DNA from: a virus
Taxonomy: Duplodnaviria > Caudoviricetes
Length of the DNA stretch: 64,000 nt
IMG/VR virus record: IMGVR_UViG_3300020431_000005
Coordinates: 32,001 to 96,000 of that record
Reading direction: 5' to 3' (one strand)
The notes under the pieces are model-generated. The model made no database searches. It was not told where the DNA came from and saw only the letters and a list, made by a program, of their open reading frames with translations. A program made the translations under genes and the position numbers. Numbering within the stretch: the first letter of the stretch is position 1; every line of letters begins with the position of its first letter. Below are positions 1 to 32,089 of the stretch, in pieces.

Positions 1-34
1 TCACTGTTGTTTCACACATCACTAAGAAATAAAA

Positions 35-535
35 ATGGCATCTATAAAAGAAAAGTTTGATTCTGCTGGTGGATTTTCTGTAGAGAAAACAATTCATATT
101 GACGAATTGCATAATGCAAAAAATCTCAATAGTTTTGAATTAAAAAATTCTTTCTATTCTGATAGTAGAGTGAAAAACGTAATCTTGAGAGGTATCAATA
201 CTGCAGTATTATCTGTAGACGATATTGGTACACAAATTACAATTGAAAATAATACTATTAATTTTATTACCGGAAGAGTTATTGTTGTAAACCCTCAAGG
301 AACAGCATACTCCGGAAAGTTGGAATCAGTAGTTCAATGTAATTCAGTTGGTGATGTAAGTATCTTATCTACAATGATAACATCTATTAAGGATGATATC
401 CCTGCAGGTCAATCATGGGTTATTGAACCTTTGGGATCAACCAATCGTTTTAGTTATAGTACGACAAGAGCAGGAACAACACAAACATTAAAGTGGGCAG
501 TAGCTACAGATGTAGTTAGTATTGCGTGGACCTGA
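35..535 (+). CDS. Hypothetical virion structural protein (tail/baseplate region)
   Basis: 166-aa beta-rich ORF directly upstream of the giant fibre gene; no diagnostic motif. Confidence 0.6.
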   Translation: MASIKEKFDSAGGFSVEKTIHIDELHNAKNLNSFELKNSFYSDSRVKNVILRGINTAVLSVDDIGTQITIENNTINFITGRVIVVNPQGTAYSGKLESVVQCNSVGDVSILSTMITSIKDDIPAGQSWVIEPLGSTNRFSYSTTRAGTTQTLKWAVATDVVSIAWT

Positions 536-553
536 TGCTAAATATATCAGAGG

Positions 554-560
554 ATAAATA
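554..560 (+). promoter_or_regulatory. T4-type late promoter (ATAAATA) for the giant structural gene
   Basis: GATAAATA about 20 nt upstream of ATG 580, followed by a GGAG RBS. Confidence 0.6.
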
Positions 561-579
561 GGCGGAGCTAGATAGCACC

Positions 580-3500
580 ATGAGTTTTAATATCAATTCC
601 GATAAAGAGTTCATTAGAGGTTCCAAACCACAACTCATCGGTGATAATGAACTTACGATTAGAACTGGATCTGGTTCTCTCGAAAAGGAGATTATCAGAA
701 CACAGTTAGATGCAAATACTGGTTTGCCCCGTGTTGGCATCAACCGAACCGGACAGAGAGTAAACGAAGTTAAACTTATTTCCGGTGGATCTGCGTATAC
801 CAGTATTCCATCTGTAACTTTAGATCCACCAGGTACTGCTGGAGGAATTCAAGCACTAGCATCTGCTTTCATTTTTAACGGTGAAGTAATTAATGTCGCC
901 GTTAATAATCCCGGTAGTGGATACACATCTGCTCCTGCTGTGACTATCACAGGTGGTGGTGGATCTGGTGCATCTGGAGAATCTTTCCTTGATACAGTTG
1001 ACTTTGAACTTGATATCAACGGCGCAATCAGAACATCAACATCAATTATTTCAGACACAGCGAGAGTTCTTAATCTTGATGTTGATAATTTTGTCACTCC
1101 AGATCTCGTTTTACGAGGTCCAAATTTTAAAAATTATATGAATGGTACTGGAATTCTATGGGATTCCAATGTTATTGTTCAAGAAAACGCTTACAGATGG
1201 TTTGGTTCTAATGTATATCAAGCATTAAATACTGGAACTACTGCATCAACAGCACCAGTTCATACTGATGGTATCGTAACAAATGGTACAGTTCAGTTTA
1301 AACATATTGGTATTAGATCAGAGGATCAAAATGCATTTGCATATGGTGAGACAGGCGAAGCAGGAATTTTTCCGCGTTCTATTACTCCGCTCCTAGGTGA
1401 TAGATCAGACAAAATTGCTACTACAGAATACGTCCTTAACCTAGCAACGAATGACGTTGGTGGTCGTATCTATGTTTCAGAACAAATTGGTTCTGACCTA
1501 AATGATGGTCGTTCAGCAGTTAATCCTGTACGTACAATCAAGAAAGCAGCACAAGAGGCATGGAAAACTGTTGGTGTTAAAGAAACTATTATCGTTTCTG
1601 GTGGTGAATACCTAGAAGACAACCCAATCTCTTTACCACCTGATGCTTCTGTTGTTGGTGATAACTTACGTTTGGTAATTGTCAGACCAAAAAATCCAGG
1701 CAAACATATTTTTAAGTTTGGTGATAAGAACTATGTTACTGGTGTAACGTACAGAGACAAAGTTGATGCTAACGGAGATTCTGTCTCTACTTGGGATTTT
1801 GCAATGGTCTTTGATGACAAGCAAAGAGTCATCTTAGATTATGAGGTAAATGGAGATTTTGGTGTTGAGTTTCCAGTTGGACATCAAATTTTTGGACCGG
1901 ACCAGTTTAGAATTGGATTTCAGGAAAACACAGGATTATCTGCTCTACAAACCGGATTAGAAATTGTTGGTATCAACACAGGTGCTAGAGCAAAAATATT
2001 TGATCTCACTTTTACCGGTACAGGAGTTTTAGAAAATAAAGGCACTATAGACATTACACTGACCAGTGGTTCTATTCAAGAAGGTGAGACCTTTAAATAC
2101 ATAACTTCTGCTTCCACAAATGCTGCTATTAATGCATTCTCAATTAGTGCAGTAAGTGGATTCAATACATTCAGAACTACTACAGATCCCACAGGAGAAA
2201 TTTCTGGTGGTGATTACATATTTTTAGATGATCTAGATGATTCTACTTTCACTTCTGGATATTATGAAGTTGCAAGTATTACACCAGATGACGAAAACAC
2301 CCCAACATATTGGGATGTTACTGTTGTTCCAATTCTAAACTCTCCAGCATGGAATGCCAATACATCAGAAAGTATTTTAATCTATGAAGCAAGTGTTGTA
2401 GAATATCAGTTTGATGGAGTATCACTAGAATCAATTAGAGCAGAAGGCGAAGTTGTATCCGTTGACGAGGATGTTACAAATACTCTGCCAATTCAGAGAC
2501 TTGATTTTTCGCTTCAAGGAGATCCCAGTATTACAACTGGAGGTTTCCAAGATGAGCAGTTTGGCAATGCAGAAGATTTAGGTGGCGTTGTTTTCTACAC
2601 GAATGAATTAGTTGGTCGAGAGAATTTCCATGAGTTCAAAGAAGGTCAAGAAATTTTAATTGAAGGTCTTCCAACTGTTGGTCCCGATTTATCATTTTTA
2701 AATGGTAAGCAAAGAATCTACAAAGTTCTGGAAGATGCGGATGGTCGCTGCCGAAGATTTGTTATACCAAAGAAAGCATCATCAATTAATGATGCCAATT
2801 TTGATCCGGGACAAAATGCTACTGTAAGCACATATTCTAGAAGTGTTACCCTATCACTACTAAACTCACCAAACACATTTGCTCTTACGACTCCAGTAGA
2901 AAGAAGATTTCAAGATGCATGTGTTTTCATCCGTAATAATAGAGACTTTATTGCTGATGAAGTAGTAGGAAGAATTAATGATGAATTTAAAAAAGATCAT
3001 TATTCGGTATATGATATTGGAGGACAATCCACCGCACAATTTACTCCAACAGACGTAACTTACGATACCGCCACAGGCGATGCAGTATTTACAGTAAATA
3101 ACCACGGATTATCTCTAGGAGATGGTATAAGAATTGCTGATCAGTCTATTGTGTTTACATGCACAATGGACAACAATCAAACAGAACATGCGTTGCCCGA
3201 TACAGATCAATACGCGAGTGGAAGATCTTTACCAATTACCGCATCAACAACTAATACTTTTACTGTAAATGTTGGTGCTTCCGGTCCAGATCAGCAGTTC
3301 ACACCTTCTGGTGCTAATTACGATCCATCAACTGGAGATCTTGTTTTAACAGTCGGACCACATACTTTATCTGCCGGTGAAGGTATTATTATTGACGACA
3401 ATTCGTTGTCCTTTACATGTGACATGGATGGAAATCAGTCTGTTAAGACTTATCCACGTCCTGGTATCGATCCTTTTGCTGGTAGGTCTATGCCTATCAC

Positions 3501-6500
3501 ATCTGTTGCTGAAAATACCATCACTATCAATGCTGGTATCTCAGGTCCTAATAAGTACTTCACACCAACTGGTGCTAACTACAATCCATCAACAGGTGAT
3601 ATGACAGTCACTGTTGGACAGCATGGTTTAGGTGTAGGTCGTAGTGTTGTTCTTGTAGACAGTTCACTCACATTCACTTGTGCTCTGGATAATAACGCAA
3701 CTCAGCATAGTTATCCACGTCCTGGTACTGATCCATATGCAGGTCAGAAATCAATCGAAATTACTGCTGTTGGTTCTACCCAACATACAGCAACTGATGC
3801 TCCTTACGATGCAGCAACTGGTGTTGTAACACTAACAGTTGCGGGTCATGGGTTTACTAATGGCGATTATGTCAAAATTGATGACGGATCTCTAACTTAT
3901 ACTTGCGATCTGGATGGCAACACTGTACAGAAAGCATATCCACGCGCTGGATACGATTATCCATCAGGTCGCTGGTTAGAAATCAGTAATGTAACTACCA
4001 ACACATTTGATATCAATGTAGGGTCTTCTTCATATACTGGTACTCATACATTTGTAAGTGCTGCAGCAAATGGCATTGATCGTCAAGACGGAACATTTAC
4101 AATTAACGTTGGAATTTCTTCCGACACTTCTGTTCATACTTTCATATCTGCAACAACAAATGCTATTAAGCATGAACCACAATCAATACACAGTTTCTCC
4201 GGTTCCACATCAAATGCAGTAAAACATCTTCCACAATCTGGTCACACTTTTGTAAGATCTGCAACAAATTCTATATCTGTTGGTGGTAGTTCATTTAGTA
4301 TCTACCTCGGAACATTAGATCATGTTAATACTTGGATTAGTGGTGGTACTGTAACTGCTACATCAAATGGTGCCGTAGCTAACGTTACTAATTTTGTATA
4401 CGATACTGCAAATACTGGTGTCGCAGTAGTAACAACTGACACACCATTAACTTTAGCAAATGATGATATTGTAAGACTAGCAGATTTACTGATTGAATGT
4501 GAAGCTGGACAAAAAATCTATCCTGCTTATAGTTCTCCAACTTCAACAAACTCTGGAACTAATGGCGATGTTCAGTGTAGGCAAGATGTTGTCCACTTTT
4601 GTAATGCACTCGTAAGAGATCTTGAGTTTGGCACAAACCATAATATTATTGAGTCATCTCAAAAGTATATTGTTGATGGCAAAATTGCGTATATCGAAGA
4701 CGAGATTACTCAAAATGTACGTGCAATAGAATATGCTAGAGAACTAGCAGTCTATGCAATGCGTAATTGGAGAACTAAAAATGGTACTCCCAACGATCCA
4801 ATCTACACTCCAAGGTATTCTTCTATTACAAGATACTTTGACGATACTGTTATCACATCTACAGCAACTGATGGTGGTACAATTGCATGTGAAGATGTAA
4901 GATCAGCAATTGACACCTTATCATATCTATGGGTTGATGTCATCACCAATGGTCAAAATGGTACTTATAAAGATGCTGCATATTTAATTACTAGAAATGC
5001 TGATGTAATTGCAAGTGAAACATATTATCAAACTAAGGTTGCTTATCCTGGACTGAACCATAATAATATTGACGAGAGAAAGTGCCTTAGAGATACCAAA
5101 TCAGTTTTGAATGCCTTAGTCAAAGATCTTACTCTTGGAGGAAACTTTGGCATTTTAGAAGCAGGAGAAATATACTTTACTGGAACCGCATTAACCGGTG
5201 TTGCTATTGGTGAATTGCCAGCGGTTCGTTATGCATATACGGTAGCAAAAGACTTAGCGCAAAAGGCAATGCGTAATTGGTCTACTAGTGGAAACATCAT
5301 TGCTGCACAACCAACTAATGCTACGTACAATTCAACTAGTGGAGAACTTGTTCTAACGGTAATCACAAGTAATTTGCCAAGTGGTTTCTCGTCTGCTGCC
5401 AACTGTAGAGTTGGATTCCAATTAGGAGCATTAACATTTAATTGTGCTCATAATAGTGGTGGAGATGATGCAAGTCCTCAAATTTTAGATACAAATCCTG
5501 GACAATCTTACCCGGTTCTTGGATATAGTGAGGGAGGTGGAATTTCCACTATCACATTAAATGTAGGTGCTGCAGGAACAAATACCGATGCTCATACTTT
5601 TGTGAGTGCATTATCGGGTGGAACAATTTTCGTTAATGATTATGCAGTATTAAACACAACTATTCCAAGATTTGAGGACTACACAACTGGAACTGATTTT
5701 CCAAACACTCCCATATGTGCGGGTGTAAAATCTGCTATTGATACTTCTTTCCAATTATTGGACGATATTTTAAGTTATGCTGTTGATCCAGTTAATGGTA
5801 TTGAACCAGGAACAACTACTCCAACATATGGAACTCTATTTACTATTTCTGATATTATTACGTATCCAAACAATTATGTTTATGATCTTAATAATACCAG
5901 GATGGCAATCCGTGGAACATATGATGATTATCCAATTATTGAGGCATCTCCATACACACAGAACGCTTCTGTAATCTCCTTCTTAGGTGGTGGCGGTGCT
6001 GAGGTTGATGGCAACAAAGTTAAGCAACCTAACTGCCCATTCCCCGGTTTAAACCAAGACGGAACAGCTCAGTTCCCAAATCAAGGTAAATCGATGGTTG
6101 CTGCGGCATTCACGATTGTCTCCTTTGGTGGTACAGGTTATAGAGTTATTAACGATGGTTATGTCCAGTTAGTTTCTGTATTCGTTATCTTCTGTGCTGA
6201 TGGTGTTCTTGCTGAGTCTGGTGGTTATGCTTCTATTACAAACTCTGCTACCAACTTTGGTGTTCATGCCCTACGTGGCATTGGATTCAGAGAGGAAGCA
6301 TACAGTTTCGACGTTGCAACTATTACTAATGTATCTTCGACTCCAACAGGTAGAGCAATTTTAACTGTTGATGGTCTTGGTAGAGAACCGCTAGAGCATT
6401 ATATTGTCAAAATCGATGGTTATCAAAATACCAATGAAGACATTGAATACTTTGTTGATGTTGTAGCCAAAGTTGGTGCTGGTCCACCATTCTCTGCTGA

Positions 6501-9500
6501 ACTTACCATTGATGATGGTCAAGGTCAAGCTATGAATCTTACTGATAGTGCAACTGGTGTTCCGGTAGCAACTTCAGTTCTGGATGGTAAAACAATTAGA
6601 CTGCATAGACCTTCTATTGTTAACTCGTCTTCGCATACTTGGGAATATGCAGGTTCTGGTACTAACTACTTAGCACTACCAGAAAACGGTGGTACTAAAA
6701 ATGAGGCAGAAGAACAAGTATCAGAAAACTATGGTCGAGTATATGTTTCAGGTACTGACGAATTAGGAGACTTTAAAGTTGGTACGTTTGCTAGGATCGA
6801 GAACAGAACTGGTAATATTACTTTCACTGGTACTGTTACTATCTCTGAAGTTGAATTCCTGAAACTGAAGGGTGGTGATGTTGTTGTTACTGGATTCTCT
6901 GCTGATAACACTCTTGGTGGAGCTACTACAAGTAATTCTGTTCTGCCTACACAAAAAGCAGTTAGAGATTACATCACTAACAATTTAGGACCTTTCATCA
7001 ATAAACCATATTCCACAAATGCTGTTCCTAGAGCTCTAGTTGAACTTACGGATTCTGGTAAAATTTCTGTTGATCAAATTCCAGCACTCAGACCATTTGA
7101 AGTTTTTACTGTTGTTAATGAGGCCGAAAGACTCCAGTTAGAAGGAGCACTTGCAGGTGATATTGCTATTCAACAAAATAGCGATGTTGTAAATGGATCT
7201 CCCCAATCGTTTATTCTTAATAATGATTTGGATAGTCAGTTCTTGGCATTTAATCCAGATCCAACAATTCAATTTACTCTTAATGATATTTTCCAGGGTA
7301 GCAATACCACCGGTCGCGTTCAAGCAACTGAGTATAGAACTGGAGTTGTATTTACAATCAATCTTGTACAAGGTGGTAGTGGATACACAGTACCTCCAAC
7401 AGTCACAATTGCAGGTACTGTTGGACAAGGTGGAATAGAAGCAAAAGCAGAAACAACCATAGCCAATGGTGAAGTTGTTACAATTTCACTAATCTTCTTC
7501 AATGGAGTTAAAGGTGGTAAAGGTTATACAAGTGCTCCTACTGTTACTATTTCGGCACCTCCAGGATTAGGAACTCAAGCAACAGCAAATGCATTAATTG
7601 AATCCAGACTATATGGAAATATTGTTAATAGAATTGCAATTATTGATACTGATCAGATTGAAAGTAGTGATGTTCCTGCGGTTACAGTTAACCTTACAAG
7701 AGTAGTTAATACTTCATCTAGTGATATCACCAATTGGGTTGGATTATCATCTAATCAGATTGCTGCTTCTGATATCACTTCTGGTACTATAGAGACTGAT
7801 AGACTTGCTAATAGCGGCGCTGCAAACTCGTTTACTTTCCTACGAGGTGATAGTTCGTTCGCTCTTGCTGTTCAATCACTCAAAGGAGCAGAAACTCGAT
7901 ACTTTGCTAAGTTGTATAGCAATGTAAGTAGTGGTCAGAACTCAATGATCTTTACTACAAATTCAGAATTCTTGATTGGTCATTCTGTTCTTTCGAGCAT
8001 TAATGGCATCCAAGCAAATACCAATATTACTGGTGTTATTACTGCAGCTGGATTGACAACTATTTCTATCAATAATCCAGTTTCACAAACAATTACTGCT
8101 GGAACTATTATTGAGTTCCAGCGTGGCAATTCGCCAATGATTTTTGAGTCAACTTATACTCAAGGAAACTTTGTTGATCGTATTATTATCGCCAATGGTG
8201 GTACTGGATTTACTAATGGTCAGTATTCTGATATTGCACTGAGTGGAGGAGCAGGAACTGATTTAAAAGCTTCAATTACTGTTTCTGGTAATACAATTAC
8301 AAAGGCTCTTGTAACATCTGGTGGAATTAACTACACAAGTGATTTTACAATTACACTCAATCCCACTGAAATTGGTGCTGGATCTGGAATGGTTTTGGAA
8401 GCAAAAGTTTCTACTGTTAATAGACAGTATGCAAACGTTGCATTAGATGTTCAGAGAGTTACCGATCTGACTATTACAGCAGATGAATATGGAACGATTG
8501 GTGTATCTAGGTTTAGGAAAGCTCAATTTAATCTTGGCACAAAAGGAAATGGTTCGGTTGAACTTAAAACAGGTGCTGGATCCGGATTAGATGCAGATAA
8601 ATTAGATGATAAGCAAGGTTCTTATTATACAAATGCAACAAATTTATTCACAGGAACTGTTCCTACAGATAGACTTGCTGGATCCTATAACATTAATGTT
8701 TCTGGTTCTTCTGGAAATACACTAAGACTAGCAACTGGTACTAACAACCCAACATCAAACCCAACTCCAAACAATTTTGTTGAAGGTCTTGCTGCTAATA
8801 CTATTAATAATAGTTCTGATGGTTTGAATGATGGTGGAGCTCAACACCTTGTGTTGACAATCAGAAACAAAGGTCAAGGTTTAACTGCCGAAGGTGGTGT
8901 CAGACAAATGGCATTCACAGATAATGACAACATCTGGTTGCGTGGTTCTGGTGATGAAGTAACAACTTTTGGTACTTGGGCGAAGATGTGGACTTCTCTA
9001 AATGATGGTCCTGGTTCCGGTCTCGATGCTGATAGACTTTCCAACAAACAAGCAGAATGGTATCAAAATGCACTTAATATTAACTATGGAGTTATTTCTG
9101 ATAATAGGATTCCAACATTCTTAAGTGCTACTAAATTTAGAGATAATCTTCGTATCCAATCATTTAATGGAGATCCTAAGTTTAAAATTTATGTTGCTGG
9201 TCAAATCTTAAATGCAACTCCATTTACTCCTGGAGGAAATGTCAACATATATAATGCACTTTCTCAAGCAATTGGTGCAATTTCAATTGATAATATTGTC
9301 ATTAATGATGACGCAAGTGATACCTTTAATGATTACACGATCCTTATTGGTAGATTGACCGCCGGTAATTTTATTGGCGGAGAAACTATTGGTACTGCAT
9401 CGAATAGAGTTCCTTACCAAGACTTTACACTTGACGATAATAATGTTGTTGAAGTTGCTACTTTAGAAAGTGATGGTGGTACTGCCAACTTAAGGTTGGG

Positions 9501-10866
9501 AAGGAAAGACGGTAATGCTACTTCTCCGGGTGTTTACTTTAATAGTTCTCAGTTAACTGCAAATTATAATAGTGCAATTGTATCCACTGGTGGTACTTCT
9601 ACTGATGGTTCAGGAACCCTGAATGCTATAGTAGTAAATGCAGATGGATTTAATATTAATGGTAATGTTATCTGGAACGAAGGCAACATTCAATTTAATT
9701 CATCGAACGTTGTAAGTACTGCTGTTGAACGTGATGCTTCTGGCAACTTTGCTGCTAGCACAATTACAGCATCATTAATAGGTGCTTCTTCACTAAACGT
9801 CCTTAAGACGGGTGATACTATGACAGGACCACTACAACTGTCTGGTGTTAATTCCACTTTAACTATTGCAGGAGCTGCAACTTTCAGTAGTACTGTAGGA
9901 ATCACAGATGATTTAACAGTTGACGGTGGCGTTTTGTTTGTAGATGCTTCTTCCAATGAAGTTGGTATTAACACCACAGATCCACAGCAAGCACTACATG
10001 TATATGGAAACATTAGATTGGATGCGGTAAACCCAGAAATTCAGTTTAATGGGACTAGCGATACCGGTATTGATATAGCAATCAAGGCAACACCAGAAGG
10101 TTTAGATTTTTATGAACCAGAAGATAGTAATAAAATTCAGTTCAGAATTTATGATGATACTGGTGTGGATTCTCCATTCGGTTATCATATTAACGGAACC
10201 AGAATTTTCAATCAAGCAAGAGATTTAACTAACGTTAACTCTACTACTATACAAAATACAGGTGCTGGTCAACTCAATTTCTATAATAATAGTGGTACAA
10301 GATACTGGAGAGCTGGTTCAAATAATAATACAACCAACTTCTTTACGATCGAAGCATCAGATGCAAATGGAGGAACGTCATTTAGTGGAGCACCTGCTCT
10401 TGCTATAAGTGGAGTTAATAATGCTGTAACAATTAACACCACTACAACTTCTGGTACTGACCCGTCAGATGGTACTACGGTAAGAAATTACAAATTTAAT
10501 GTTCAAGGTGATATGAACCTTAACGGTCAGTTCTTCCAAAATAATGCAGAATTTGTAACCTCTAGATGGACTGAAGCAACTAATGGTAATGACATTTACA
10601 GATTGTCTAGTGTTGGTATTAATAAAGCAGATCCACAATATACATTAGATCTGGATGGAGATTTTAATATCACTGGTATTCAGTATATTAATGGCAATGC
10701 ACAATGGTTGGATTCCAATGGAATCATCAAAATTGTTCAAAATGCTGATATCGCAGAAAACATTACAATTGGTAATTCCTCTGATTGTTTTTCCAATGGT
10801 CCTATTGTAATTGCTACCGGATATGCGGTAACTATTGGAAGTGGATCTAGTTGGGCAATTATCTAA
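580..10866 (+). CDS. Giant (3428 aa) tail-fibre/baseplate-associated virion protein
   Basis: G/T/S/N-rich. Contains GSGYTSAP(T/A)VT repeats, a beta-helix start (IYVSEQIGSDLNDG...RTIKKA), helical DAxxxIxxN..C.RD repeats and fibre motifs GSGLDAD(K/R)L, VLKTGDTMTG and VGIN. Confidence 0.8.
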   Translation: MSFNINSDKEFIRGSKPQLIGDNELTIRTGSGSLEKEIIRTQLDANTGLPRVGINRTGQRVNEVKLISGGSAYTSIPSVTLDPPGTAGGIQALASAFIFNGEVINVAVNNPGSGYTSAPAVTITGGGGSGASGESFLDTVDFELDINGAIRTSTSIISDTARVLNLDVDNFVTPDLVLRGPNFKNYMNGTGILWDSNVIVQENAYRWFGSNVYQALNTGTTASTAPVHTDGIVTNGTVQFKHIGIRSEDQNAFAYGETGEAGIFPRSITPLLGDRSDKIATTEYVLNLATNDVGGRIYVSEQIGSDLNDGRSAVNPVRTIKKAAQEAWKTVGVKETIIVSGGEYLEDNPISLPPDASVVGDNLRLVIVRPKNPGKHIFKFGDKNYVTGVTYRDKVDANGDSVSTWDFAMVFDDKQRVILDYEVNGDFGVEFPVGHQIFGPDQFRIGFQENTGLSALQTGLEIVGINTGARAKIFDLTFTGTGVLENKGTIDITLTSGSIQEGETFKYITSASTNAAINAFSISAVSGFNTFRTTTDPTGEISGGDYIFLDDLDDSTFTSGYYEVASITPDDENTPTYWDVTVVPILNSPAWNANTSESILIYEASVVEYQFDGVSLESIRAEGEVVSVDEDVTNTLPIQRLDFSLQGDPSITTGGFQDEQFGNAEDLGGVVFYTNELVGRENFHEFKEGQEILIEGLPTVGPDLSFLNGKQRIYKVLEDADGRCRRFVIPKKASSINDANFDPGQNATVSTYSRSVTLSLLNSPNTFALTTPVERRFQDACVFIRNNRDFIADEVVGRINDEFKKDHYSVYDIGGQSTAQFTPTDVTYDTATGDAVFTVNNHGLSLGDGIRIADQSIVFTCTMDNNQTEHALPDTDQYASGRSLPITASTTNTFTVNVGASGPDQQFTPSGANYDPSTGDLVLTVGPHTLSAGEGIIIDDNSLSFTCDMDGNQSVKTYPRPGIDPFAGRSMPITSVAENTITINAGISGPNKYFTPTGANYNPSTGDMTVTVGQHGLGVGRSVVLVDSSLTFTCALDNNATQHSYPRPGTDPYAGQKSIEITAVGSTQHTATDAPYDAATGVVTLTVAGHGFTNGDYVKIDDGSLTYTCDLDGNTVQKAYPRAGYDYPSGRWLEISNVTTNTFDINVGSSSYTGTHTFVSAAANGIDRQDGTFTINVGISSDTSVHTFISATTNAIKHEPQSIHSFSGSTSNAVKHLPQSGHTFVRSATNSISVGGSSFSIYLGTLDHVNTWISGGTVTATSNGAVANVTNFVYDTANTGVAVVTTDTPLTLANDDIVRLADLLIECEAGQKIYPAYSSPTSTNSGTNGDVQCRQDVVHFCNALVRDLEFGTNHNIIESSQKYIVDGKIAYIEDEITQNVRAIEYARELAVYAMRNWRTKNGTPNDPIYTPRYSSITRYFDDTVITSTATDGGTIACEDVRSAIDTLSYLWVDVITNGQNGTYKDAAYLITRNADVIASETYYQTKVAYPGLNHNNIDERKCLRDTKSVLNALVKDLTLGGNFGILEAGEIYFTGTALTGVAIGELPAVRYAYTVAKDLAQKAMRNWSTSGNIIAAQPTNATYNSTSGELVLTVITSNLPSGFSSAANCRVGFQLGALTFNCAHNSGGDDASPQILDTNPGQSYPVLGYSEGGGISTITLNVGAAGTNTDAHTFVSALSGGTIFVNDYAVLNTTIPRFEDYTTGTDFPNTPICAGVKSAIDTSFQLLDDILSYAVDPVNGIEPGTTTPTYGTLFTISDIITYPNNYVYDLNNTRMAIRGTYDDYPIIEASPYTQNASVISFLGGGGAEVDGNKVKQPNCPFPGLNQDGTAQFPNQGKSMVAAAFTIVSFGGTGYRVINDGYVQLVSVFVIFCADGVLAESGGYASITNSATNFGVHALRGIGFREEAYSFDVATITNVSSTPTGRAILTVDGLGREPLEHYIVKIDGYQNTNEDIEYFVDVVAKVGAGPPFSAELTIDDGQGQAMNLTDSATGVPVATSVLDGKTIRLHRPSIVNSSSHTWEYAGSGTNYLALPENGGTKNEAEEQVSENYGRVYVSGTDELGDFKVGTFARIENRTGNITFTGTVTISEVEFLKLKGGDVVVTGFSADNTLGGATTSNSVLPTQKAVRDYITNNLGPFINKPYSTNAVPRALVELTDSGKISVDQIPALRPFEVFTVVNEAERLQLEGALAGDIAIQQNSDVVNGSPQSFILNNDLDSQFLAFNPDPTIQFTLNDIFQGSNTTGRVQATEYRTGVVFTINLVQGGSGYTVPPTVTIAGTVGQGGIEAKAETTIANGEVVTISLIFFNGVKGGKGYTSAPTVTISAPPGLGTQATANALIESRLYGNIVNRIAIIDTDQIESSDVPAVTVNLTRVVNTSSSDITNWVGLSSNQIAASDITSGTIETDRLANSGAANSFTFLRGDSSFALAVQSLKGAETRYFAKLYSNVSSGQNSMIFTTNSEFLIGHSVLSSINGIQANTNITGVITAAGLTTISINNPVSQTITAGTIIEFQRGNSPMIFESTYTQGNFVDRIIIANGGTGFTNGQYSDIALSGGAGTDLKASITVSGNTITKALVTSGGINYTSDFTITLNPTEIGAGSGMVLEAKVSTVNRQYANVALDVQRVTDLTITADEYGTIGVSRFRKAQFNLGTKGNGSVELKTGAGSGLDADKLDDKQGSYYTNATNLFTGTVPTDRLAGSYNINVSGSSGNTLRLATGTNNPTSNPTPNNFVEGLAANTINNSSDGLNDGGAQHLVLTIRNKGQGLTAEGGVRQMAFTDNDNIWLRGSGDEVTTFGTWAKMWTSLNDGPGSGLDADRLSNKQAEWYQNALNINYGVISDNRIPTFLSATKFRDNLRIQSFNGDPKFKIYVAGQILNATPFTPGGNVNIYNALSQAIGAISIDNIVINDDASDTFNDYTILIGRLTAGNFIGGETIGTASNRVPYQDFTLDDNNVVEVATLESDGGTANLRLGRKDGNATSPGVYFNSSQLTANYNSAIVSTGGTSTDGSGTLNAIVVNADGFNINGNVIWNEGNIQFNSSNVVSTAVERDASGNFAASTITASLIGASSLNVLKTGDTMTGPLQLSGVNSTLTIAGAATFSSTVGITDDLTVDGGVLFVDASSNEVGINTTDPQQALHVYGNIRLDAVNPEIQFNGTSDTGIDIAIKATPEGLDFYEPEDSNKIQFRIYDDTGVDSPFGYHINGTRIFNQARDLTNVNSTTIQNTGAGQLNFYNNSGTRYWRAGSNNNTTNFFTIEASDANGGTSFSGAPALAISGVNNAVTINTTTTSGTDPSDGTTVRNYKFNVQGDMNLNGQFFQNNAEFVTSRWTEATNGNDIYRLSSVGINKADPQYTLDLDGDFNITGIQYINGNAQWLDSNGIIKIVQNADIAENITIGNSSDCFSNGPIVIATGYAVTIGSGSSWAII
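3037..4281 (+). repeat. Four nested ~90-aa beta-domain repeats inside the giant protein
   Basis: Units FTPT..Y(D/N)..TG...TV..H....FTC..D.N...YPR...TF.INVG start at 3037, 3295, 3556 and 3781; the HTF(V/I)S-type terminal strands are stacked at 4045, 4135, 4189 and 4243. Confidence 0.8.
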
Positions 10867-29494: not shown

Positions 29495-30637
29495 ATGTCA
29501 GATATGTTAAATGAAAAATTTGAGGAGTTCGTTACCGAGCAAAAGGTGATTGTAGAAGCTGGCGATCCTATGCCAACAGTTTCTGCTAACATTATCCCCG
29601 GTGCTGGTAGCGAACCCTCTCAGGTTTCTGACGCGCAGACTGGTTCTGGCGGCAAGGATCCTATGCCTTCAGTTCAACCAGGTGTTGCTCCTGGACAATC
29701 TGCTGCTGCAGATTTAGGTGGAACTTCCACCGCTCCTAATGAGGATGATGACGACGGCGAAGAGAATCCTGGCGCTAAAGCGGCAGCACCTATTTCGCAA
29801 GTATCTGGCGATCCCCAACAACGTGCCGGTAGTCCCGACGCTATGCCTACCGTTGGTGCTGATGTTGCATACGCGACTAGTACTGGACCTGCTGTTACTT
29901 ACCCCATCAAACCTTCTTTTGAAGAACTTGATGTTTCCGCTGATGTTGCCGCTCTAGTAGAAGGCACAGAACTCTCTGAAGAGTTCGCTGAGAAAGCAAA
30001 AGTCATTTTTGAGGCTGCTGTCAAAGCGAAAATCTCTGAGGAGTATGACAAACTTGTAGAGCACTTTGCTGCTGAACTCGATAAGCACGTATCATCTGCT
30101 AAGGCAGAACTTTCCGAGGAAGTAGACGGCACAGTGTCCTATGCCATCGGTCAATGGATGGAGCAAAACCAAGTTGCTATTGACCGTGGAATCAGAAATG
30201 AGATCACTACAGACTTCATCGCAGGTTTGAAGGGTCTCTTTGAAGAGCACTACATTTCTATTCCCGACGAGAAAGTCGATGTTGTAGAAGGTATGGCTGA
30301 ATCTATTCGTGAAATGGAAACCCGCCTTGACGAACAGGTCAAAGCAAACGTGAAATTACAAAATCGTCTTAACGAGTCTGCCAAACTCAATGTTCTGTCC
30401 ACCGTGTCAGAAGGACTAGCAGATACTCAGAAAGAAAAACTCGCAGCACTTGCTGAGGGTCTAGAGTTTGTCTCGGAAGAGTCATTCTCCAAGAAGGTTA
30501 CGACCATCAAGGAGTCTTACTTCAAAGAGTCAATCGCTACCCCAACGGAAGTTGTTGATGAATCCCCAGTTGAAGGTGTAGATGATTCTAACCCAGTAAT
30601 GGCGCAGTATCTGAAAGCACTTGACCGCTGGTCCTAA
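29495..30637 (+). CDS. g22: Prohead core scaffold protein gp22
   Basis: ELSEEFAEKAKVIFEAAV; LKGLFEEHYI; TIKESYF; MAQYLKAL. Confidence 0.93.
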   Translation: MSDMLNEKFEEFVTEQKVIVEAGDPMPTVSANIIPGAGSEPSQVSDAQTGSGGKDPMPSVQPGVAPGQSAAADLGGTSTAPNEDDDDGEENPGAKAAAPISQVSGDPQQRAGSPDAMPTVGADVAYATSTGPAVTYPIKPSFEELDVSADVAALVEGTELSEEFAEKAKVIFEAAVKAKISEEYDKLVEHFAAELDKHVSSAKAELSEEVDGTVSYAIGQWMEQNQVAIDRGIRNEITTDFIAGLKGLFEEHYISIPDEKVDVVEGMAESIREMETRLDEQVKANVKLQNRLNESAKLNVLSTVSEGLADTQKEKLAALAEGLEFVSEESFSKKVTTIKESYFKESIATPTEVVDESPVEGVDDSNPVMAQYLKALDRWS

Positions 30638-30673
30638 TAATAAACCCCACATTTTTCAAACAAGAGCAAACAA

Positions 30674-32089
30674 ATGTTTAATTCAAAGGCTCTAACCGAA
30701 AAGTGGTCTCCTGTTCTAAGTCATGAAGGCGCTGGTGCCATCAAAGACAATTATAGAAAGGCTGTTACCGCTGTTCTGTTAGAAAACACAGAAAATCAAC
30801 TACGCGAAGAGCGTGGTATGATGAACGAAGCTAGTACTGTTGGAGCTATCAGCGCAGCTGGTGGACAAGCACTAGGCGGTTCTGGTCTAACCACCAAGAC
30901 TGGTGGACTTGCAGGTTTCGATCCTGTAATGATCAACCTTATCCGTCGTGCGGCACCTAACTTGGTTGCATACGACATCTGTGGCGTTCAACCCATGAGC
31001 GGTCCTACTGGACTTATCTTCGCAATGAAGAGCCACTACAACACCAGAGCTGGCGCTGAGGCACTCTACAACGAGCCTGACACCAACTTCTCTGGAAACA
31101 CTCAGGGTCCTGGCGCATACAACGATCCCGTATCTCCTCTTGGCGATGGCGGTTCGACTGATGCTAACCCTGGTCTGCTTAACGACGCCACTGGCGGCGG
31201 CACCACTGCTGCTAACTACGAGCGCCAAGCAGGCAACATTGCTAGAGAAACAGCAGAAGTTCTTGGATCGGGTTCGACCTTGTTCAACGAAATGGACTTC
31301 AGCATCGAGAAGACTGCGGTCACTGCTAAGACCAGAGCTCTTCGCGCTGAGTACACTCTAGAATTGGCACAAGACCTTAAGGCAATCCACGGTCTTGATG
31401 CAGAGCAGGAACTCGCTAACCTATTGTCTAGCGAAATCCTTGCTGAGATCAACCGTGAGGTTGTTCGTACCGTTTACACCGTTGCTAAGCCTGGTGCTCA
31501 GAACAACGTTGCTAACGCTGGTGTATTTGACCTCGACGTTGACAGCAACGGTCGTTGGTCGGTTGAGAAGTTCAAAGGACTTATGTTCCAAATCGAGCGC
31601 GATGCCAACGCTATCGCACAAGAGACTCGTAGAGGAAAGGGCAACTTCATCGTCACTTCTGCTGACGTTGCTTCTGCTCTTGCCATGTCTGGCACACTCG
31701 ACTATTCCTCAGGTCTAACTGGTTCTGGTGGTCCTTCCATCGGTGATGTTGATGACACCGGAAACCTTCTAGTCGGCACCATGAACGGTCGCATTAAGGT
31801 CTATGTTGATCCTTACTCTGCTAACGTTTCTAACACCCACTACTACGTAGTTGGTTATAAGGGTTCTTCCCCTTATGACGCAGGACTATTCTACTGCCCC
31901 TACGTTCCCCTCCAGATGCTACGCAGCATCGATCCTCAGACCTTCCAACCTAAGATTGGTTTCAAGACCCGCTACGGCATGGTCAGCAATCCTTTCGTTG
32001 AGTCTTCTGCAGGAACTCCTGATGCTGAAGCACTTACCGCTTCTAAGAACCAGTACTACAGACGTGTTCGCGTTGCGAACCTCGCCTGA
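30674..32089 (+). CDS. g23: Major capsid protein gp23
   Basis: KWSPVL; CGVQPMSGPTGLIFAM; ELAQDLKAIHGLDAE; FQPKIGFKTRYG. Confidence 0.99.
   Translation: MFNSKALTEKWSPVLSHEGAGAIKDNYRKAVTAVLLENTENQLREERGMMNEASTVGAISAAGGQALGGSGLTTKTGGLAGFDPVMINLIRRAAPNLVAYDICGVQPMSGPTGLIFAMKSHYNTRAGAEALYNEPDTNFSGNTQGPGAYNDPVSPLGDGGSTDANPGLLNDATGGGTTAANYERQAGNIARETAEVLGSGSTLFNEMDFSIEKTAVTAKTRALRAEYTLELAQDLKAIHGLDAEQELANLLSSEILAEINREVVRTVYTVAKPGAQNNVANAGVFDLDVDSNGRWSVEKFKGLMFQIERDANAIAQETRRGKGNFIVTSADVASALAMSGTLDYSSGLTGSGGPSIGDVDDTGNLLVGTMNGRIKVYVDPYSANVSNTHYYVVGYKGSSPYDAGLFYCPYVPLQMLRSIDPQTFQPKIGFKTRYGMVSNPFVESSAGTPDAEALTASKNQYYRRVRVANLA

What the first reader, a model, noticed from the sequence alone, without database searches (positions are those of the whole stretch)
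1465..6300. Russian-doll (nested insertion) domain topology in the giant fibre protein
Seen: the ~90-aa repeat normally ends with an HTFVSA strand, as in the intact copy at about 5305-5640. In 3037-4281, repeats 1, 2 and 3 lack that strand. Repeat 4 (3781-4086) is complete and sits inside repeat 3, between ITAVG and DGTFTINVG. The missing strands then return in reverse order: HTFISA 4135, HSFSGS 4189, HTFVRS 4243. This gives 1[2[3[4]]]. The nest interrupts a helical repeat (RFQDA..NRDFIADE ... CRQDV..ALVRDL). Those repeats in turn sit between the two halves of an apparent beta-helix (YVSEQIGSD..GDNLR at about 1465-1815 and SPYTQNAS..SATNFG at about 5938-6290). Inference: the chain runs out and back, building a protruding stalk whose length grows by domain-in-domain insertion rather than tandem duplication.
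Basis: partly seen in the sequence, partly recalled or inferred. Interest (0 to 1): 0.72.

Follow-up and report, generated by a model that had tools for sequence, protein, structure and literature searches.

The report
Russian-doll barrel domains in cyanophage fibre
A 3,428-residue tail-fibre protein of a T4-like marine cyanophage most likely carries four copies of one small beta-barrel inserted inside each other, themselves inside three further host domains, which matches or slightly exceeds the deepest domain-in-domain nesting I found described.

Summary
ORF 580..10866 is a cyanomyovirus tail-fibre-type protein (phrog_5342).

**The nest.** Barrels D1 and D2 lack only their last strand. D3 is cut one strand earlier. 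D4 is complete. The missing pieces return in reverse order.

**Model evidence.** In an AlphaFold2 model (pLDDT 86), the same solved E1 FCCH barrel aligns equally well to contiguous D4 (model 295..401) and to split D1 (47..465). D2 spans 134..450.

- A circularly permuted barrel, D0, lies between the nest and the helices.
- The "helical repeat" is a phycobiliprotein-like globin, and the nest sits in its B-E loop.
- The outer host is a right-handed beta-helix. Its halves are adjacent in paralogues, and in an orthologue model beta-helix matches span the whole 20..1059.
- That gives six insertion levels.

**Orthologues.** At the same site they carry nothing, D0 alone, D0 plus four barrels, or trees of 9-15 barrels. 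Body and return-strand counts track each other (Spearman 0.95).

**Not shown.** The stalk geometry, strand completion within one chain rather than between chains, and the function are inferred.

**Closest precedent.** The Si3 insertion of cyanobacterial RNA polymerase. This scan has already found the same phenomenon in other cyanophage genomes.

The parts
580..10866 (+). ORF of the 3,428-aa tail-fibre-type virion protein (P0001)
   Evidence: phrog_5342 'tail fiber protein' matches full length, E=0. The orthologue in Synechococcus phage ACG-2014j is annotated tail fiber-like protein.
1462..1812 (+). N-terminal part of the split right-handed beta-helix (aa 295-411); level 0 host
   Evidence: In paralogues P0002/P0014/P0018 it lies 5-27 aa from the C-half. 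In the orthologue model, beta-helix hits span 20..1059 with 220-250 residues aligned, Z 12-14.
2893..2994 (+). First helices of phycobiliprotein-like globin unit 1 (aa 772-805), up to its B-E loop; level 1
   Evidence: Model 1 has helix 2-32, and globin/phycobiliprotein hits span 1..625-650. In the orthologue, unit 1 = model 396..561, 4xxi_A Z 14.2, rmsd 1.9.
2995..3024 (+). D0 strand M1 (aa 806-815, ..YSVYDIGG); level 2, circularly permuted barrel
   Evidence: Barrel hits span model 33-41..536-546. D0 is contiguous in P0112/P0050/P0067. Permutation test.
3037..3294 (+). D1 body (aa 820-905), lacks its last strand; level 3
   Evidence: Body HMM 110 bits. UBA1 FCCH barrels align over model 47..465, Z 8.0-8.3, rmsd 2.4-2.6, 72-78 aligned.
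3295..3552 (+). D2 body (aa 906-991), lacks its last strand; level 4
   Evidence: Body HMM 124 bits. Barrel hits span model 133-136..446-450.
3553..3777 (+). D3 body (aa 992-1066), cut after strand M1 (..IEITAVGS); level 5
   Evidence: Body HMM 123 bits. M1 scores 10.4 at aa 1056, and M2 is missing until aa 1169.
3778..4083 (+). D4 (aa 1067-1168), the complete innermost barrel; level 6
   Evidence: All four pieces are contiguous. UBA1 FCCH barrels align over model 295..400-402, Z 7.5-8.3.
4084..4179 (+). Return of D3: strand M2 (DGTFTINVG) and last strand (HTFISA), aa 1169-1200
   Evidence: M2 14.0 bits at aa 1169 and S 26.0 bits at aa 1185. Strands at model 396-406 and 416-421 with pLDDT about 90.
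4180..4233 (+). Return strand of D2 (HSFSGS), aa 1201-1218
   Evidence: S 13.8 bits. Strand at model 434-439. D2 hits end at 446-450.
4234..4281 (+). Return strand of D1 (HTFVRS), aa 1219-1234
   Evidence: S 19.3 bits. Strand at model 452-457. D1 hits end at 465-466.
4282..4539 (+). Rest of D0: M2-like (SFSIYLG), S-like (HVNTWISGG), then the N-part (NVTNFVYD..YPA), aa 1235-1320
   Evidence: Model strands 466-544.
4564..4764 (+). Globin unit 1 resumes at QCRQD (aa 1329-1395), the equivalent of the chromophore-cysteine helix
   Evidence: Model helices 559-624. The orthologue P0171 joins the two parts with a 9-aa loop. A phycoerythrin alpha alignment covers the same B helix, loop and KCxRD segment of unit 2.
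5305..5640 (+). Single complete barrel (aa 1576-1687) inserted in globin unit 2
   Evidence: S 24.1 bits and M2 11.2 bits. Absent from P0171, as an indel at aa 1573-1689.
5935..6291 (+). C-terminal continuation of the split beta-helix (aa 1786-1904; it continues further downstream)

Best explanation
The gene encodes a virion tail-fibre-type protein whose chain makes a long there-and-back excursion through nested domains. There are six insertion levels:
- Level 0: a right-handed beta-helix, interrupted after about 130 residues.
- Level 1: a phycobiliprotein-like globin within the roughly 1,375-residue excursion.
- Level 2: a circularly permuted small beta-barrel (D0) in the globin's B-E loop.
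- Levels 3-6: four more copies of the same barrel family (D1-D4) in D0's M1-M2 hairpin. Each sits in a distal loop of the one before.

The insertion points differ. D2 sits in D1, and D3 in D2, between the penultimate and last strands. D4 sits in D3 one hairpin earlier.

The chain therefore leaves D1, D2 and D3 unfinished and completes D4. On the way back it hands each barrel its missing strand or strands in last-in-first-out order. It then finishes D0, the globin and the beta-helix.

Consequences (inferred): every joint is crossed by two chain segments. The arm should therefore be stiffer than a single-linker bead string, and it must fold from the inside out. The arm lengthens or branches in evolution by inserting balanced units (body plus return strand) into three loop hot spots.
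For: Shown:
- Sequence anatomy and significance of the return strands.
- AF2 model of aa 771-1420: mean pLDDT 86, pTM 0.68, with the return strands at pLDDT about 87-94.
- The same solved FCCH barrel (for example yeast Uba1 180-258) aligns to contiguous D4 (295..401; Z 7.5-8.3, rmsd 2.5-2.8, 73-79 aligned). It aligns equally to split D1 (47..465; Z 7.5-8.3, rmsd 2.4-2.6, 72-78 aligned).
- Other barrels span D2 at 133..450 and D0 at 33..546. Globins span 1..633.

Comparative:
- P0171 lacks the whole D0+nest, with a 9-aa loop instead.
- P0112, P0050 and P0067 carry D0 alone and contiguous.
- Others carry D0 plus 4, or D0 plus 9-15 barrels, at the same site.
- P0022 equals P0075 plus a balanced four-barrel nest dropped between M2 and S of one barrel. 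The outer return strands are retained after it.
- P0039 has 11 bodies and 11 return strands. Bodies are cut at three different points, and their missing pieces reappear in stack order.
- Bodies versus return strands per cluster: Spearman 0.95, with 140 of 240 exactly equal.
- Of 600 parsed barrels, 349 are split.

Outer layers:
- The beta-helix halves are adjacent in paralogues.
- Beta-helix hits with Z 12-14 span 20..1059 of the orthologue model.
- Globin units match ApcE and allophycocyanin at Z 13-14, rmsd 1.9.
- Pfam PF00502 passes its threshold in orthologues.
- Phycoerythrin alpha gives a sequence hit at E=0.003.
Against: - No coordinates, PAE or contact map were available. Topology is read only from the first and last aligned residue of structural matches to a predicted model.
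- D3's split was not resolved separately in the hit lists.
- The top barrel hit, 4hiz, ends at model residue 493, not 465.
- The barrel Z scores (about 8) are middling.
- The covariation test pairing each body with each strand was inconclusive.
- The parser leaves 184 unclosed bodies and 166 orphan pieces in divergent relatives, probably from limited detection.
- The beta-helix model is of an orthologue (62% identical), with pLDDT only 55-85 in the helix.
- Oligomeric state is unknown.
Confidence: 0.85

Rival explanations
1. The nested order in sequence is real, but the return strands complete barrels of neighbouring chains. This would be 3D domain swapping in a trimeric or other oligomeric fibre, rather than completion within the same chain.
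For: Many phage fibres are intertwined trimers (general knowledge). Only a monomer was modelled. Nothing here tests oligomeric state.
Against: The monomer model closes D1 and D2 in cis with high confidence and normal barrel geometry. Linkers of 6-12 residues between return strands fit a path back along the chain's own stack.
Confidence: 0.08
2. This is an ordinary tandem array. Repeats 1-3 are complete without a last strand, or they borrow the first strand of the next repeat. The three HTF units form a separate small beta-meander.
For: The N-terminal strand (xFTPTxA) weakly resembles the last strand, at 6.5-7.2 bits and below threshold. Whole-model Foldseek hits are to bead-like tandem arrays.
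Against: Solved barrels need the distant strand to cover D1 and D2. Bodies in relatives are cut at three different points, and exactly the missing pieces return in stack order. Strand number tracks body number across depths 1-11. D3 lacks two strands, which reappear together after D4.
Confidence: 0.04
3. The pattern is an artefact, either mis-assembly of a repetitive gene or chance motif recurrence.
For: Metagenomic record; repeat-rich gene.
Against: No long DNA repeats. The gene is colinear with an isolate phage genome at 84% identity. More than 30 orthologues share the same layout. Strand scores are far above shuffled controls.
Confidence: 0.01

Closest known systems
Si3 insertion of cyanobacterial RNA polymerase beta' (RpoC2): recursively inserted sandwich-barrel hybrid motifs
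   Same: Copies of one small beta domain are inserted into each other. Several domains are built from distant chain segments. The result is an elongated appendage inside a host domain. Si3 is described as eight domains in a six-level recursive architecture (PMC13114784). SBHM-2 to -5 are discontinuous in the crystal structure (PMC10895346).
   Different: The domain family differs: an FCCH-like barrel with no SBHM match seen. The protein is a virion protein rather than an enzyme. The hosts are heterologous (beta-helix, globin, permuted barrel). Depth and branching vary widely between close relatives: 0, 1, 5 and 9-15 domains at one site, with parsed depth up to 7 in a balanced case.
First catalytic cysteine half-domain (FCCH) beta-barrel of ubiquitin-activating enzyme E1
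   Same: Best structural match of single barrels: Z 7.5-8.3, rmsd 2.4-2.8, 72-79 aligned, 13-20% identity. Weak Pfam E1_FCCH hits cover the first hairpin.
   Different: The hits fall below the Pfam threshold (15.5 and 28.5 bits against 29.5) and cover only profile positions 3-28. No functional link is implied.
Beta-barrel domain inserted in the propeller of phage endosialidases (phi92, 4hiz)
   Same: A small barrel of similar fold (Z 8.5, rmsd 2.1, 81 aligned) serves as an inserted domain in a phage tail spike.
   Different: It is a single-level insertion of one barrel, with no self-nesting.
Right-handed parallel beta-helix tailspikes and pectate lyases (K1 lyase 7w1c, CBA120 TSP1 4oj5, phi29 gp12 3gq7)
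   Same: This is the fold of the outermost host domain: Z 12-14 with 220-250 aligned in the orthologue model. It begins with the typical N-terminal cap motif.
   Different: Here the helix is interrupted by an excursion of 600-2,300 residues. There is no sequence-level family hit, and no catalytic residues were examined.
Phycobiliproteins (phycoerythrin alpha, allophycocyanin, ApcE bilin-binding domain)
   Same: Same fold as the two helical units: Z 13-14, rmsd 1.9. Pfam PF00502 passes its threshold in orthologues. The KCxRD segment aligns with the chromophore-cysteine region.
   Different: These units are embedded in a virion fibre. P0001 itself gives no Pfam hit. Chromophore binding is untested. 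The B-E loop carries the barrel nest.

Membership tests
Recursive (nested) domain-insertion architecture, A1-B1-C-B2-A2 type | The host domain's sequence is interrupted by a complete guest, and the host still forms one compact fold | tested here: met
   D1 spans model 47..465, D2 133..450, D0 33..546 and the globin 1..633, each with only 70-117 residues aligned. Orthologues lacking the guests exist.
Recursive (nested) domain-insertion architecture, A1-B1-C-B2-A2 type | A guest is itself a host, over two or more levels | tested here: met
   The order is beta-helix, globin, D0, D1, D2, D3, D4. D3's own span was not resolved separately in the hit lists, so that level rests on sequence pieces.
Recursive (nested) domain-insertion architecture, A1-B1-C-B2-A2 type | Counts of opened and closed domains balance across relatives of different depth | tested here: met
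   Spearman 0.95 over 240 clusters, 140 exactly equal, 13 balanced architectures. The remainder deviate mostly by missed divergent strands.
SBHM / hybrid-motif domains of RNA polymerase Si3 | The barrel has the sandwich-barrel hybrid fold | tested here: inconclusive
   No SBHM chain appears among the listed structural matches. Absence from a 50-row list does not exclude the fold.
Pfam PF16190 E1_FCCH | Score at or above the gathering threshold (29.5 bits) | tested here: not met
   D4 scores 15.5 bits and P0022 28.5 bits, covering only profile positions 3-28. The fold similarity stands.
Right-handed parallel beta-helix (pectate-lyase-like, tailspike-type) | The fold matches solved beta-helices over most of the domain | tested here: met
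   For the orthologue P0171: Z 12-14, 220-250 aligned, more than 30 different beta-helix entries. For the window protein this is inferred from 62% identity.
Pfam PF00502 Phycobilisome protein | Score at or above the gathering threshold (22.2 bits) | tested here: inconclusive
   P0001 gives no hit. Orthologues P0196 (22.5) and P0192 (29.0) pass. Fold match Z 13-14, rmsd 1.9.
PHROG phrog_5342 tail fiber protein | Full-length profile match | tested here: met
   E=0, 4998 bits, residues 1-3428 against profile 1-3319.

The most novel reading that the evidence does not exclude
Self-nesting of one barrel family, inside heterologous hosts, is the way cyanomyovirus fibre proteins build and vary rigid, sometimes branched side arms. 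In this protein it gives six insertion levels: beta-helix, phycobiliprotein-like globin, permuted barrel, then four barrels. Relatives go deeper. This equals or exceeds the six-level Si3 case, which a survey of 2.7 million domains highlighted as its most complex example. Such arms must fold from the innermost domain outwards.
Probability: 0.6. Interest if true: 0.75.

Novelty: new variant of a known kind. Interest (0 to 1): 0.66.

Why it matters
Domain-in-domain insertion is usually one level deep. Here a natural protein family shows a graded series at a single loop: none, one, five, and 9-15 nested barrels. This makes it a ready test bed for three questions:
- How discontinuous domains fold, including inside-out and co-translational folding.
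- How balanced insertions arise genetically.
- How phage fibres change reach and shape without changing their anchoring domains.

It also shows that sequence-repeat counting alone misreads these giant cyanophage proteins. More than half of their barrels are split, so automatic domain annotation will under-call them.

Tried and rejected
- **Covariation.** I computed mutual information between each body (N1-N4) and each return strand (S1-S4) over 154 four-barrel modules (Neff 48). The signal was dominated by shared ancestry. After centring, only two of the four predicted pairs were positive, so the test is inconclusive.
- **Whole-model Foldseek against PDB.** Only low-TM matches to bead-like arrays; uninformative.
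- **Sequence search of the two beta-helix halves against PDB.** Nothing usable.
- **Pfam on the whole protein.** No family.
- **Contig look-up.** I reached the orthologue's DNA through the search for related loci instead.
- **Own-genome search for a paralogue with an unsplit beta-helix.** Only the self-match was found in the 114-kb record.
- **First strand detector.** My first HMM detector missed the divergent HSFSGS strand and gave false imbalances. I replaced it with position-matrix scanning.
- **D3's split.** It could not be seen separately in either VIA list.
- **A hypervariable tip.** I looked for one as a hint of receptor binding. Conservation is uniform across D1-D4 at 0.70-0.73 identity, so there is no support for that.
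- **Literature.** Searches found no description of nesting in cyanophage fibres. The library is limited to open-access papers and preprints.
Full report
**What is there.** The finding lies in one ORF, 580..10866 (+), of 3,428 aa. PHROG family phrog_5342 'tail fiber protein' matches it end to end. Pfam finds nothing. The nearest isolate is Synechococcus phage ACG-2014j (Kyanoviridae, a T4-like cyanomyovirus) at 84% DNA identity. There the gene is annotated tail fiber-like protein and sits in the structural module upstream of gp13. There are no long DNA repeats in the region.

**Checking the observation.**
- I built a 101-position profile from 239 complete domains of homologues and divided it into four pieces: N (positions 1-62, up to the YPR loop), M1 (xIxIxxV), M2 (xTFxINVG) and S (HTFVSA...).
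- Scanning the protein gives four N bodies (110-124 bits).
- M1 occurs at aa 881, 968, 1056 and 1130. M2 occurs at aa 890, 977, 1139 and 1169.
- S occurs at aa 1155, 1185, 1203 and 1221, plus the separate copy at 1654/1671.
- The order reads N M1 M2 | N M1 M2 | N M1 | N M1 M2 S | M2 S | S | S. That is D1[D2[D3[D4]]].
- S scores are 13.8-28.9 bits, against a shuffled 99.99th percentile of 10.8.

**Structure prediction.** I modelled aa 771-1420 with AlphaFold2 using 35 orthologues. Mean pLDDT is 86 and pTM is 0.68. The return segments form strands at pLDDT about 87-94.
- The compact FCCH barrel of E1 enzymes aligns to contiguous D4 (model 295..400-402; Z 7.5-8.3, rmsd 2.5-2.8, 73-79 aligned).
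- It aligns with the same quality to a span of 419 residues, 47..465 (Z 7.5-8.3, rmsd 2.4-2.6, 72-78 aligned). That span is the D1 body plus the last return strand.
- Other barrels (lambda gpJ 490-567, N4 tail, aIF2-gamma domain II, FNR-type barrels) span 133-136..446-450. That is the D2 body plus the second return strand.
- D3's span was not resolved in the lists. The top hit, 4hiz, ends at 493 rather than 465.
- This is strong but indirect support for last-in-first-out completion.

- Hits spanning model 33-41..536-546 with 62-84 residues aligned define another barrel, D0. It is made of aa 806-815 plus 1235-1320.
- Its order of pieces is M1, M2, S, N, which makes it a circular permutant of the same family.
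- Re-permuted D0 of P0050 hits the domain profile in one piece (positions 3-94, 34.3 bits). The native order gives two swapped pieces. The signal is weaker for P0001 itself.
- D0 is contiguous in P0112, P0050 and P0067. In P0001 the four-barrel nest sits in D0's M1-M2 hairpin.

Between the anchors RRFQDA and C(R/K)RD of the first helical unit, orthologues carry one of the following:

| Spacing between anchors | Content | Examples |
|---|---|---|
| 39-40 aa | no insertion | P0171, L036 |
| about 130-143 aa | D0 alone | P0112, P0050, P0067 |
| about 550-560 aa | D0 plus four barrels | P0001 and about 40 others |
| 982-1,668 aa | D0 plus trees of 9-15 barrels | P0063, P0051, P0039, P0044, P0038 |

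- P0022 equals P0075 plus a balanced four-barrel nest inserted between M2 and S of one barrel. The outer return strands are conserved after it.
- P0039 has 11 bodies and 11 S strands. Bodies are cut after N, after M1 or after M2, and exactly the missing pieces return in stack order.
- Over 240 distinct clusters, body and S counts correlate at Spearman 0.95. They are equal in 140, and 13 different balanced architectures occur.
- Of 600 distinct barrels with all four pieces assigned, 251 are contiguous, 207 are split at M2|S, 123 at M1|M2, and 15 at both.
- In divergent relatives the parser leaves unclosed or orphan pieces. I attribute this to detection limits.
- A covariation test was inconclusive.

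**Outer layers.**
They are 603 to 2,300 residues apart in orthologues.
- I modelled the orthologue P0171 (aa 275-1390, 62% identical, pLDDT 72).
- More than 30 solved right-handed beta-helices match it at Z 12-14 with 220-250 residues aligned. These include K1 capsule lyase 7w1c, CBA120 TSP1 4oj5, pectate lyases and phi29 gp12. All span model 20..1059. The beta-helix is therefore real and split.
- The 'helical repeat' is two tandem phycobiliprotein-like globins. These are model 396..561 (ApcE 4xxi_A, Z 14.2, rmsd 1.9) and 563..725 (8imk_G, Z 13.2, rmsd 1.9).
- Pfam Phycobilisome passes its threshold in orthologues P0196 and P0192.
- Phycoerythrin alpha aligns by sequence (E=0.003) over helix B, the B-E loop and the KCxRD segment.
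- D0 plus the nest occupies that B-E loop in unit 1. The single barrel at aa 1576-1687 is an insertion in unit 2.

**How it most likely works.**
- Shown: the linear order of pieces, the balanced grammar in relatives, and a confident model in which distant strands close D1, D2 and D0.
- Inferred: the barrels stack outward from the globin. Each barrel's termini would lie at one end and its insertion loops at the other.
- Inferred: two chain segments cross every joint and stiffen the arm. The pTM of 0.68 for seven domains is consistent with fixed relative positions.
- Inferred: folding proceeds from D4 outwards.
- Inferred: arms grow or branch by insertion of balanced units at three loop hot spots.
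- Conservation is uniform along D1-D4. This argues for a structural spacer rather than a hypervariable receptor tip.
- Completion in trans within an oligomer cannot be excluded.

**Comparison with what is known.** The closest precedent is the Si3 insertion of cyanobacterial RNA polymerase beta'. It has eight hybrid-motif domains, several of them discontinuous (PMC10895346). A survey of 2.7 million domains describes it as a six-level recursive architecture (PMC13114784).
- The present case has six insertion levels in this protein.
- It uses a different, unannotated barrel family (FCCH-like by fold, below the Pfam threshold).
- It has heterologous hosts, and depth and branching vary between close relatives.
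- I found no description of it in the searchable literature.
- Earlier follow-ups of this scan reached the same reading on other cyanophage genomes. I saw those notes only after my own tests.

**Verdict.** This is a new variant of a known kind. Interest 0.66.

Noticed in passing
window 2893-2994, 4564-5300 and 5641-5930: The helical units of the fibre are phycobiliprotein-like globins. The fold matches at Z 13-14, rmsd 1.9. Pfam PF00502 passes in orthologues. The KCxRD / QCRQD segment aligns with the chromophore-cysteine region of phycoerythrin alpha. Whether they bind a bilin is unknown.
   Followed up: partly
window 2995-3024 plus 4282-4539: D0 is a circularly permuted member of the same barrel family, with piece order M1-M2-S-N. 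It is contiguous in some orthologues and split by the nest here.
   Followed up: yes
proteins P0002-P0021: Giant paralogues of 4,700-5,900 aa carry three to six separate four-barrel nests (12-24 bodies with equal numbers of return strands). Their beta-helix is not split at this site.
   Followed up: partly
P0179 aa 750-880; L010 aa 714-1044: The same globin B-E loop region holds an unrelated beta domain of about 120 aa in P0179. L010 instead has extra short helical repeats further along. The site seems to be a general insertion hot spot.
   Followed up: no
L002 501-5285: The called protein P0171 ends at aa 1409 with an odd tail, while the tblastn match runs on to 5285. This is probably a frameshift or sequencing error in that metagenomic contig.
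   Followed up: no
window 29495-32089: The GC-rich stretch (0.48 against about 0.39) is the T4-type scaffold protein gene and the gp23 major capsid gene. This is ordinary.
   Followed up: yes
window 2101-2400 (aa 508-608): P0001 has about 90 extra residues, relative to P0171, in the beta-rich region between the beta-helix N-part and the globins. Not examined.
   Followed up: no
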